DNA of 63,958 nucleotides, the filler included, from Kipferlia bialata (taxonomy: Eukaryota), in NCBI GenBank assembly GCA_003568945.1. It is 5 parts of 5 records of this genome, joined end to end, with 100 filler letters (N's around TTAATTAATTAA, not from the genome) between each part and the next. Parts side by side here need not be neighbours in the genome. Positions count along the whole stretch, not along the records: positions 27,647 to 41,358 come from BDIP01000911.1; 4 more parts are not named here. One strand, 5' to 3'. Below, piece by piece: positions 28,389 to 32,331 of this stretch (its first letter is position 1; every line of letters begins with the position of its first letter). The position numbers were made by a program, and so were the translations under genes. Below the pieces are notes generated by a model. The model was not told the origin of the DNA. It was given only the letters and a program-made list of their open reading frames with translations, and searched no databases.

Positions 28389-31300
28389 GTATGTATATAT
28401 ACATACTTATACCTAGGCCCCTGCCCTTGTGGCCAAGGTGATGAACATCTCTCTCTCTCTCTCTAGTATATGTATAGTATATGCACACTCTCACTGTTAG
28501 GCCCCTGCACTTGTGGCCAAGATGATGAACGTTGAGGAGGGCACACCCTGTGATGTCGTGTACCCCACACTGGCAGAGCACACATTCGAGGTATATATAT
28601 ATTATATACTAGAGTATCGATATATATATATATATATATATGAATGATCTGTGTAGATGTATGTGGTATCTTCCTGTGATGTTGTGTACCCCACACTGGC
28701 AGAGCACACATTCGAGGTATAACCCTATCACTCCCATCTATACATACATATATATGTTACTAATGCTTATCAACAGGTCTCCTCCCAGTGGCTGTCCAGG
28801 AGGGTCGGTCTGCCCCTGACCCCAGAGGACGTGGTGACACACCTCGCCAAGATGATGATGAAGGTATATATCACTCATGCACACACTCTCTCTGGTTATG
28901 TCTTGCTCTCTCTCTCTCTGTGTCTCGGGCTACCGTCTTATTATCAGTCCGAGGTCATCCTTGACTCTGAGGCCGGGGAGGCAGACGTCAAGGTCACAGC
29001 CCCATGCACTAGGTAGGGAGAAGATATATATGTATATAGGGTATATATGTATATAGGGTATATATAGGGTATATACAATATGCATATAGTATAGAGAGAG
29101 GTATGTATGTGGCAGACGTCAAGGTCACAGCCCCATGCACTTTCTATACATCGGTGAACCCCTGTGACAATCTGGAGGACATTGCCTTTGACATCTCTCT
29201 CTCTCTCTCTCTCTCTTACTTATAGGTCCGATATCCTGCACCCCTGTGACATTGTGGAGGACATCGCCATTGGCATTGGATACTCCAACATCCCAGTCAC
29301 ACCCCCACCCATCGTGACAGTCGGTATGTATATATATACTATTCTCGTATTAATGTGTGCTTTCTTAGATGGTCTCTCCCTCACCCCTGTCTCTCTCTCT
29401 CTCCCTCTCTCTCTCTCCCTCTCTCTCTTATCTCTGACCCCAGGCTCTGTGCTACCCATCAACCCCTCACCCTCTCAGTCCTTCTTTCTATCGTTATCTC
29501 TCAATATATAAATTTATATATCTTCTCTCTATCGTTATCTCAATATGTATATGTATATATACTAACCCCAGGCTCTGTGCTGCCCATCAACCAGGTCACA
29601 GAGGGACTCAGGTACATATGTGTATATTATTATATATACTTTTTTTATACCTATGTGTGCATATTAACATATCAATCAATAACATATCAAATAGTATTCT
29701 TTACGTCAACCAGGTCACAGAGGGACTCAGGTACAGAGACAATATATGCATATATACTAATTTCTTCTTTCTAATGATTATAGTATTGAATATATACCTC
29801 ACCCCCCAGGTCTGTCATGTCCAGCGCTGGATACACCGAGGCCCTGTCCTTTGCACTCACAGGTGTGCTCTCTCTCTGTCTCTCTCTCTCTCCATCTCTA
29901 TATCTATGGAATTTGTATATTGTGTATATATGTATATATTATATTATCTAATCACTAGGCACCGATGACCTCCTCCCCGAGGACGGTGAGGCCGTGCTCC
30001 TGTGCAACCCCTTGACAGCTGCATTCCAGTGTGTCAGGTATACATACTATATATATACATACACACACACATATTTGTCTATATATATGTATATAATATA
30101 GAAGTATATTATAATATAATACAACCCCTTGACAGCTGCATTCCAGTGTGTCAGGTGTGTAAATAGTAACATATACATATATAAGTATATATATGTGTGT
30201 GGGTATGTACGTATACTCACTCTTGACTGCAGTGCTGCATTCCAGTGTGTCAGGTTTTGATAATACTGTTACTTATCCTACTGTTTCCGTTACTTCACAA
30301 GTATACATATATCTCTGTACTATATGCACTAATGTATTGGCATGTACTCACCCCAGGACCAGCCTTGCCCCCGGTCTCCTGAAGACTGTGTCATCCAACA
30401 AGGACGCACCAAGGTATTACTAATTTTGTATTATCATTATCAATATTGCTGGTGTATATTGTTTCATATGTGTGTTAGCATGTGTTTTGGGACTTTATGT
30501 CTCTCTCTCCCCTTTCTCATCCTTAGGCCCCTGCGTCTCTTTGAGATCTCTGACATTGTGCGTGGCACAGCCAAGAGGCCCAGCCACTACGTCTCTGGCC
30601 CAGACACAGCTAGGTATGAATTGACTATCATATAATCAATTGATTGATCTTCTGTAATCAATTCATTGATTGGTTGTCATTGATTCCCAGGGAGGAGGAG
30701 GTTGACACTGCTGCCATGAACGAGAGGCACATATCCTGTGTGGTGTCTGACACCACAGACGCATTCGAGGTATATATATGTATATATATCGTGTATTATT
30801 ATAGTGTGTATATATCCTGTGTGGTGTCTGACACCACAGACGCATTCGAGGTATACTATACATCTCTCTCTCTCTCTCTCTTTCTCCCTATATATATATA
30901 TATATAGAAGTATGAGTGTGCAGTTATAGATTGAGGCACATCTCCTGTGTGGTGTCAGACACCACTGATGCATTCGAGGTATGTATTATTATACATTATA
31001 AATAATACAAGTATTAAGTGTAGTNNNNNNNNNNNNNNNNNNNNNNNNNNNNNNNNNNNNNNNNNNNNNNNNNNNNNNNNNNNNNATTATAGTATTATTA
31101 TGGTATATATATATATGTCCTGTGTGGTGTCTGACACCACAGACGCCTTTGAGGTATATATATTATTACATATTATAAATAATACAAGTATATATGTATA
31201 TATCCTGTGTGGTGTCTGACACCACAGACGCCTTTGAGGTATACTATACATCTCTCTCTCTCTCTCTCTCTCATGTATTATGGAATACATATATCCTGTG

Positions 31301-32331
31301 TGGTGTCTGACACCACAGACGCATTTGAGGTATGCTGATATATTCTAGTATATATATATAGTGGATACTTGGTTTCTCGCTTTGTGTTTGTTGGATATAT
31401 ATATCCTGTGTGGTGTCTGACACCACAGACGCCTTTGAGGTATGGTATATTTGTGTTATATATTAGTGGAGTGTAAGTGTTACATACACAATGTGTGTAT
31501 TTAGTATATATATGTAAATATATCCTGTGTGGTGTCTGACACCACTGATGCATTCGAGGTATAGTACTATATATATATACATTATATGAGTAGAAAATGT
31601 GGTATATACAACATAGTGTATTATGGAATACATATATCCTGTGTGGTGTCTGACACCACAGACGCCTTTGAGGTATAGTACACAATATATGTATACGTGT
31701 ATGTTATATAAGTAGAAAATTGTAGCATAAAATATATATTGCATTGTGGCAATAATATGTATCCTGTGTGGTGTCTAACACCACTGATGCATTCGAGGTA
31801 TGGTGTGCATGTATATCAATATCTCTCTCTATATATATATTTAGACTGTACATAACTATCAGGAGGCCCACGGCCTTGTCAAGTACATCCTGAACAACCT
31901 TATGATAATAGTATACCTTCGCCATGTCTAACTATACATATATATATATTCATATCCATTCATATTATTCTTTACTACTTACTTTACCTTACTGTTAGGA
32001 GGCCCACGGCCTTGTCAAGTACATCCTGAACAAGCTGGACGTGACATCATTCACCATGTCTGAGTCCAAGCACGACCTGCTGTTCCCAGGCAGGGGGGCA
32101 GACATCTATGTGGAGGGCAAGGTACTTATATAGTAGATATAGCAGTATAGTATGTTGTGTATATGTATATGTATCTATGTATACGACCTGCTGTTCCCAG
32201 GCAGGGGGGCAGACATATACGTCGAGGGCAAGGTACATAGATATTCTAACACTATATTTCTCTCGTGTCGTATGTTATCATATACTCTCACTCTAGGGCC
32301 TCGTTGACCACGTGGGCGTCGTTTACCCCAA

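What the first reader, a model, noticed from the sequence alone, without database searches (positions are those of the whole stretch)
30731..31800. CRISPR-looking array in a FARSB intron made of silent variants of [15 protein letters not shown]
Nine echoes of the exon end, each retaining the GTAT donor. Variants: ACA GAC / ACT GAT, GCA TTC / GCC TTT / GCA TTT, TCT/TCA and ATA/ATC are all silent. Within the [12 protein letters not shown] core only the last copy has a replacement (GAC>AAC). Several recurring haplotypes are interleaved. Spacer starts also recur (30853 vs 31241; 30980 vs 31158), showing multi-unit duplication.
Basis: seen in the sequence. Interest (0 to 1): 0.75.

Follow-up and report, generated by a model that had tools for sequence, protein, structure and literature searches.

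The report
Introns stocked with spare exon ends
In the free-living protist Kipferlia bialata, this intron holds nine copies of the end of the preceding exon, and two thirds of the introns in the three genes examined hold such copies; they differ from the working exon mostly at silent positions, likely because recombination keeps swapping them with working exon ends.

Summary
The array is in the assembly as described: nine 38-46 nt copies of a FARSB exon end, each followed by GTAT, with a 61-N gap inside. It is not CRISPR. It is the extreme case of a general habit in this organism (Kipferlia bialata): 33 of 49 introns in three annotated genes carry copies of the neighbouring exon end or exon start, about every 110 nt. 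Across 74 copies pN/pS against the exon is 0.21, with no stop codons and few indels. That is below what dead copies beside a selected exon would give (about 0.5; p=9e-8). Constraint tends to be strongest next to the splice site, and core haplotypes are shuffled against their flanks. Best reading (0.5): the copies are spliced out, but unequal exchange and gene conversion cycle them through the working exon position among diverged haplotypes. Recursive splicing is not supported: copy ends do not score as acceptors. No reads could be examined, so copy number and expression are untested. The scan noted similar echoes in single annelid and sea-urchin genes; the urchin silent bias was weaker. Nearest published case: human F7 intron 7 minisatellite.

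The parts
27736..32579 (+). 3' part of FARSB (phenylalanyl-tRNA synthetase beta chain), 15 exons and 14 GT-AG introns; the 5' part lies off the scaffold
30691..30769 (+). Exon 13 of the mapped model; its last 38-46 nt are the source of the echoes
30739..30757 (+). Perfect inverted repeat (9-bp arms, 1-nt loop) inside the repeated core; the only one with arms of 7 bp or more in 3846 nt of coding sequence from three genes
30770..31998 (+). Intron 13 as annotated (1229 nt), outermost GT to outermost AG
30812..30850 (+). Echo 1, identical to the exon end, then GTAT
30933..30978 (+). Echo 2, four silent differences
31025..31085 (.). 61-N scaffold gap inside the array; no exact duplicate across it
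31115..31153 (+). Echo 3 (GCC TTT type)
31200..31238 (+). Echo 4 (GCC TTT type); same flanks as echo 1 but a different core
31288..31329 (+). Echo 5 (GCA TTT type)
31401..31439 (+). Echo 6 (GCC TTT type)
31520..31558 (+). Echo 7 (ACT GAT type)
31631..31672 (+). Echo 8 (GCC TTT type)
31760..31797 (+). Echo 9 (ACT GAT type, with the D>N replacement)
31798..31862 (+). Innermost GT...AG stretch (65 nt) between the last donor echo and the acceptor echo
31863..31900 (+). Echo of the start of exon 14, preceded by CAG
31999..32121 (+). Exon 14
267..8200 (+). Second annotated gene (P0002, 20 introns) with the same exon-edge echoes, up to six in one intron
33339..38970 (-). Third annotated gene (P0003, 15 introns) with the same echoes

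Best explanation
The array is nine intronic copies of a FARSB exon end with its donor, likely removed in one piece by splicing from the outermost sites, and likely kept protein-true because unequal exchange and gene conversion keep swapping such copies with working exon ends of diverged haplotypes. Shown: the anatomy, its prevalence (33 of 49 introns), the silent excess, the polarity and the shuffling of cores against flanks. Inferred step 1: a roughly 110-nt duplication across an exon-intron junction leaves the exon intact and is tolerated. Inferred step 2: because the AT-rich, microsatellite-laden introns diverge fast, exon edges and their echoes are the main homology for recombinational repair, so misaligned exchange adds copies whose junction-side part comes from a working exon and removes copies by putting an echo's junction-side part into the exon, where replacements are purged. 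Inferred step 3: the hairpin in this core makes the site a hot spot, hence nine copies where most exon edges have one or two. The model needs silent diversity of about 0.2 or more among K. bialata haplotypes, which is untested.
For: Prevalence and geometry: 75 echoes in 33 of 49 introns; 46 of 49 upstream-exon echoes reach the exon end and 42 of those 46 keep GT; 23 of 26 downstream-exon echoes reach the exon start and 21 of those 23 keep AG; no intron has an acceptor echo before a donor echo; each echo adds about 113 nt. Protein-level constraint: 96.5 silent and 59.5 replacement codon variants on 364 and 1070 sites, pN/pS 0.21, 0 stops in 74 echoes; p=2e-21 against neutrality and 9e-8 against 'only the exon is selected'; still p=1e-4 at kappa 10, measured kappa about 1.7. 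With one echo per family the ratio is 0.18 to 0.27, below the 0.5% quantile (0.35) of the simulated exon-only model with the same detection filter. Echo against echo is also silent-biased (0.27). Changes in a nearer echo where a farther echo agrees with the exon are 12 silent to 8 replacement, 0.21 silent expected, p=0.0002. Ratio rises with distance from the splice site: 0.12, 0.23, 0.31 (rank test p=0.009). Exchange: echoes 6-9 show all four combinations of two core types and two downstream flanks, and echoes 1 and 4 share flanks but not cores. The nearest echo is closer to the exon than the farthest in 12 of 16 families (p=0.001). Acceptor echoes carry different but valid signals: branch motif in 19 of 24 against 59 of 372 other intronic YAG. 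Hairpin: lowest folding energy of 98 exon edges, z=-2.4. Fornicates lack NHEJ and Rad51A and rely on homologous recombination (PMC8516963, section read).
Against: No direct evidence of diverged alleles: each of the three proteins stands alone in its 90% cluster on one contig, the core pattern had 0 matches in metagenome contigs and the protein scan gave only distant relatives, 26-48%. Without the FARSB array the polarised test is weak (6 silent to 8 replacement, p=0.047). The distance gradient is not significant as a two-bin table (Fisher p=0.11) and could partly reflect stronger constraint on codons near junctions. My own rough calculation says selection through rare exchange only works if diversity is very high. 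About 2-3 echoes do carry indels under lenient gap costs (7 of 80 alignments gapped). Frames for P0002 and P0003 rest on gene models without Pfam support. No reads were seen. The hairpin link rests mainly on this one site (rho -0.23 over 98 edges).
Confidence: 0.5

Rival explanations
1. One-way capture: echoes are former working exon edges, displaced or imported once from a diverged allele or hybrid partner during aborted break repair, and now decay without cycling back.
For: Explains the silent excess, valid but different splice signals, flanks unrelated even beside echoes identical to the exon (9 such donor echoes match their own true flank at a median of 4 of 16 bases, unrelated introns 5) and polarity.
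Against: Predicts uniform pN along an echo, whereas pN/pS rises away from the junction; needs extra events for the four core-flank combinations and at least three core lineages in this array. Needs the same untested high diversity.
Confidence: 0.2
2. Dead tandem duplications; the silent bias comes only from the working exon drifting at silent sites while the copies decay.
For: Young tandem units with alignable spacers exist; polarity fits ageing; replacement changes lean GC to AT, 25 against 13, as neutral decay would. An earlier scan note reached this verdict for a sea-urchin gene (43 of 107 silent).
Against: Expected silent share 0.41, observed 0.62, p=9e-8; simulation puts the ratio at 0.35 or more; echo-echo differences are silent-biased; no stops in 74 echoes.
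Confidence: 0.1
3. The internal sites are used by the spliceosome (recursive or stepwise removal, or alternative donors and acceptors), and echo codons reach protein.
For: Unit period (median 114 nt, n=49) matches echo-free intron length (median 108, n=16); 44 of 49 exons end in AG, so each donor unit is formally GT...AG; echo donors and acceptor echoes score near real sites.
Against: Donor-echo ends score like random intronic YAG as acceptors (median -2.3 against -2.6; branch motif in 7 of 46), and the FARSB copies end in GAG while 48 of 49 real acceptors are YAG. Use of an echo site would give an in-frame, stop-free product in only 6 of 62 cases tested, 8 more set aside for an N gap. Recursive removal would not translate the echoes, so it cannot explain protein-level constraint.
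Confidence: 0.1
4. Short-read assembly artefact that strings pieces of different alleles or strains together.
For: The published draft is a short-read SPAdes assembly of a probably diploid culture (PMC5874029); all echoes are 54 nt or shorter; the array contains an N gap; echoes look like pieces of other alleles.
Against: Real join artefacts in this window look different: exact duplicates across N with a spacing of exactly 55 (41+14 and 54+1); the array gap has none. The longest exact repeat in the array is 49 nt, under that spacing, so each unit's flanks should be resolvable. Ten different flanks and several core types exceed two alleles. Most echo-bearing introns contain no N. The exact unit count across the gap remains uncertain.
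Confidence: 0.1

Closest known systems
Human F7 intron 7 (IVS7) 37-bp minisatellite (Borensztajn et al. 2006, PMC1557585; abstract read)
   Same: First unit spans the exon-intron border, so the true donor is followed by pseudo-donors that normally stay silent; the most upstream site is used.
   Different: One human locus of 37-bp units; here units have divergent spacers, occur in 33 of 49 introns, on both donor and acceptor sides, and differ from the exon mainly at silent codon positions.
Intron gain by tandem genomic duplication of an AGGT-bearing exon segment (reviewed in PMC3443670; passages read)
   Same: Local duplication of exon sequence that ends up inside an intron.
   Different: That model puts the downstream exon copy at the intron start and the upstream copy at its end; here the order is the reverse and each copy carries its own splice site, so existing introns grow rather than new ones arising.
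Silent cassettes that recombine into an expressed gene, such as Borrelia vls (PMC3828179; search listing only; mechanism recalled)
   Same: Unexpressed partial gene copies next to the expressed site that bear a signature of selection at the protein level, by way of recombination (what it likely works like).
   Different: Those are dedicated, diversifying systems at one antigen locus; here the signal is purifying, in housekeeping and other genes, inside introns, with no sign of a dedicated machinery.
CRISPR arrays
   Same: A 37-46 nt palindromic repeat with variable spacers and a polarity of divergence.
   Different: The repeat is coding exon sequence of a eukaryote, spacers are related low-complexity intron DNA of 46-140 nt, and the neighbours are FARSB exons.

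Membership tests
CRISPR array | Unique spacers of near-constant length, unrelated to each other | tested here: not met
   Spacers 46-140 nt, AT-rich, sharing starts and ends in mosaic fashion
CRISPR array | Non-coding repeat in a prokaryotic or viral locus | tested here: not met
   Repeat is the end of FARSB exon 13 in a spliced eukaryotic gene; no Rfam match in the scaffold
Junction-spanning minisatellite (F7 IVS7 type) | First unit spans the exon-intron border, giving downstream pseudo-donors | tested here: met
   9 of 9 copies end at the exon end and are followed by GTAT
Junction-spanning minisatellite (F7 IVS7 type) | Head-to-tail units similar over their whole length | tested here: not met
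   Tandem Repeats Finder reports no array here; units are 62-77% alike over 78 nt except one pair
Junction-spanning minisatellite (F7 IVS7 type) | Only the most upstream donor is used | not testable with these tools
   The gene model uses the outermost sites; no RNA reads were available
Junction-spanning minisatellite (F7 IVS7 type) | Copy number varies among individuals | tested here: inconclusive
   No second holder of the sequence found
Recursive splicing (ratchet points) | Internal AG|GT preceded by a real acceptor signal | tested here: not met
   Echo ends score like background YAG; branch motif in 7 of 46; FARSB copies end in GAG
Recursive splicing (ratchet points) | Intermediates or lariats at internal sites | not testable with these tools
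   No reads could be laid
Intron gain by tandem genomic duplication | Downstream-exon copy at the intron start, upstream-exon copy at its end | tested here: not met
   In 0 of 33 echo-bearing introns does an acceptor-side echo precede a donor-side echo
Silent-cassette recombination systems | Unexpressed copies with protein-level selection signature | tested here: met
   pN/pS 0.21, 0 stops in 74; non-expression itself is inferred
Silent-cassette recombination systems | Observed transfer of cassette sequence into the expressed site | not testable with these tools
   Only indirect signs: core-flank shuffling, gradient

The most novel reading that the evidence does not exclude
Most introns of Kipferlia bialata hold a polarised, recombining archive of working exon edges with their splice sites. 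The copies are never translated in place yet stay under protein-level purifying selection because recombinational repair, in a lineage without NHEJ, keeps swapping them into the exon; one isolate's introns would then record the species' allelic history, and exon-edge duplication would be a main driver of intron length in the one intron-rich fornicate genome.
Probability: 0.4. Interest if true: 0.85.

Novelty: new variant of a known kind. Interest (0 to 1): 0.7.

Why it matters
Single junction-spanning repeats are known curiosities. A genome in which about two thirds of introns carry them, with intact decoy donors and acceptors and a protein-coding signature in untranslated DNA, would be new architecture. 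It would give tens of thousands of natural tests of how a reduced spliceosome picks the outermost of several valid sites, a direct test of selection acting on sequence through its chance of being recombined into use, and a way to read allelic diversity from a single isolate. It also bears on whether the 124,912 introns of K. bialata (PMC5874029) reflect an ancestral state or active remodelling, and it warns that gene models in this genome can pick an echo for an exon.

Tried and rejected
No whole genome was held and no sequencing reads could be examined, so all counts come from three annotated genes in the window. Metagenome scan for the core pattern: 0 matches. Protein scan: 25 loci, all distant; 5 of those 25 were checked for direct repeats and none showed exon-edge echoes, two had microsatellite-like families, a weak control. 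No tRNA in the window and no Rfam match in the scaffold. A single age class of echoes was considered: pooled dispersion 1.08 suggested it, but one echo per family gives 1.43, inside the simulated range for spread ages (1.0-2.2) and above that for one age (0.52-1.15). In-frame alternative donors rejected. An acceptor-like site inside the core scores only 2.3 and would add 11 nt. Junction microhomology with dinucleotide runs is not general (4 or more bases in 5 of 49 donor echoes). One P0003 echo was dropped before the counts as an N-flanked assembly duplicate (75 to 74). Literature: nine searches gave no listing that describes this pattern in K. bialata or genome-wide elsewhere; in the genome paper the terms 'duplicat' and 'tandem' occur 0 times. 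The library lacks most subscription papers, and no supplements were read.

Full report
Observation. The core occurs ten times between 30735 and 31799: once as the end of an exon and nine times in the following intron, always followed by GTAT. A neighbouring exon is 100% identical to a named Kipferlia bialata protein that carries the FARSB domains PF17759 and PF03484 and maps exactly onto 15 exons; the array lies in intron 13, 1229 nt long. Five of the six variable sites in [12 protein letters not shown] are silent. A 61-N gap lies inside the array. The window is five scaffolds joined by spacers.

It is not a one-off. A repeat scan showed exon-edge copies throughout the gene-bearing scaffolds. 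I mapped two more named proteins and aligned each exon to its flanking introns. 33 of 49 introns hold echoes, 75 in all (49 of the upstream exon, 26 of the downstream exon); 12 of 2450 unrelated pairs reach the same score. 46 of 49 upstream echoes reach the exon end and 42 of these keep GT; 23 of 26 downstream echoes reach the exon start and 21 of these keep AG. Donor echoes always precede acceptor echoes. Echoes are 19-54 nt, each adds about 113 nt, and echo-free introns have a median of 108 nt. A kinesin-like gene on another scaffold shows the same: three differences, same peptide.

The echoes bear a protein signature. After dropping one N-flanked duplicate, 74 echoes give 96.5 silent and 59.5 replacement codon variants on 364 and 1070 sites: pN/pS 0.21 (FARSB 0.17, the others 0.22), per-pair pS 0.20 and pN 0.034, no stops. 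The ordinary explanation, a selected exon beside a dead copy, predicts a silent share of 0.41; 0.62 is seen (p=9e-8; p=1e-4 even at kappa 10; measured kappa about 1.7). Taking one echo per family gives 0.18-0.27, below the 0.5% quantile of 0.35 in a simulation with the detection filter. Echo-echo differences are also silent-biased (0.27). Changes in a nearer echo where a farther echo agrees with the exon cannot come from the exon's own past; they are 12 silent to 8 replacement against 0.21 expected (p=0.0002), but only 6 to 8 without this array (p=0.047). Indels are few but present: 0 of 75 under strict gap costs, 7 of 80 under lenient costs, about 2-3 of them convincing. So most of the divergence arose while the sequence was under protein-level selection (inference).

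Signs of exchange. In the array, echoes 6-9 show all four combinations of two core types and two downstream flanks, and echoes 1 and 4 share both flanks but not the core. Echoes identical to the exon usually have unrelated flanks. The nearest echo is closer to the exon than the farthest in 12 of 16 families, 3 reversed, 1 tie. pN/pS rises from 0.12 within 12 nt of the splice site to 0.23 and 0.31 farther out (rank test p=0.009; two-bin Fisher p=0.11), as expected if exchange within the homology moves the junction-side part between echo and exon. Acceptor echoes have signals that differ from the true acceptor yet conform: branch motif in 19 of 24, against 47 of 49 real and 59 of 372 background sites.

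Why nine here. The core holds a perfect 9-bp inverted repeat, the only one with arms of 7 or more in 3846 coding bases; this exon end folds best of 98 edges (z=-2.4, 5 of 200 shuffles). A hairpin hot spot is likely but rests largely on this site.

Splicing. Period and intron length agree and 44 of 49 exons end in AG, which invites a ratchet model, but donor-echo ends score as background acceptors and the FARSB copies end in GAG, while 48 of 49 real acceptors are YAG. Using an echo site would keep an open frame in 6 of 62 cases. One-piece removal from the outermost sites, as shown for human F7 intron 7 (PMC1557585, abstract), is the likely mode on the donor side; how the last of several valid acceptors is chosen is unexplained.

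Artefact. The published draft is a short-read SPAdes assembly of a probably diploid culture (PMC5874029, parts 1-3 of 6 read). Join artefacts in the window are exact duplicates across N spaced 55 apart; the echoes are inexact, mostly N-free, and the longest exact repeat in the array is 49 nt. I put a wholesale artefact at 0.1; the unit count across the gap is less certain. No reads were seen.

Mechanism. Best reading (0.5): junction-spanning duplications of about 110 nt are tolerated, spliced out, and cycled through the working position by unequal exchange and conversion among diverged haplotypes. Fornicates lack NHEJ and Rad51A and depend on homologous recombination (PMC8516963, passages and section 8), which fits but is not specific. 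The weak point: by my rough reckoning both this and one-way capture need silent diversity near 0.2 or more, and I found no second allele.

Prior knowledge. The genome paper does not mention the pattern in the parts read, and 'duplicat' and 'tandem' do not occur in it; PMC6679479 (passages) reports a reduced spliceosome and no snRNA candidates for this species; PMC9933649 (part 1 of 2) lists about ten times fewer introns in Aduncisulcus. Nine searches listed nothing on this architecture; subscription papers and supplements were not covered. Earlier scan notes describe similar echoes in single annelid and sea-urchin genes; they are unchecked leads, and the urchin silent share (43 of 107) fits the ordinary model that is rejected here.

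Verdict. Observation confirmed; CRISPR and recursive splicing not supported; a new, apparently genome-wide variant of junction-spanning repeats with unexplained protein-level constraint. Interest 0.7.

Noticed in passing
window 46475-55166 and 55267-63958: Scaffolds 4 and 5 share 8692 nt at 100% identity in reverse complement: an assembly duplicate or a very recent duplication; it includes part of a CLC chloride channel gene (PF00654).
   Followed up: partly
window 13830-16100, - strand: Kinesin motor gene (PF00225 hit below the curated cut-off on one short exon) with four echo pairs; the pair at 14016/14099 differs at three positions with the same peptide.
   Followed up: partly
window 33841-33990, - strand: Two echoes of one P0003 exon end at 9 of 53 and 14 of 53 differences, including two-base silent leucine swaps and conservative replacements; the far one looks like a diverged working homologue.
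   Followed up: partly
window 35-310: Three copies of an exon end at a scaffold edge; the public model uses the third, and by eye the first two lack 4 nt relative to it, so gene models here may mistake an echo for an exon.
   Followed up: no
all 49 mapped introns: Tight splice grammar: branch motif 7-9 nt from the 3' end in 47 of 49 introns, exon ends AG in 44 of 49, next exon starts with G in 35 of 49.
   Followed up: partly
window 39606-40757, + strand: Intron-free 383-codon open frame of a choline/ethanolamine kinase (PF01633) in an otherwise intron-rich neighbourhood; possibly a recent acquisition or retrocopy.
   Followed up: no
window 18235-18358 and 38074-38182: Exact duplicates across N gaps with spacing 55, typical assembly join artefacts.
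   Followed up: yes
window 32567-32659: Short G-rich tandem repeats beginning at the FARSB stop codon and copying its last codons.
   Followed up: no
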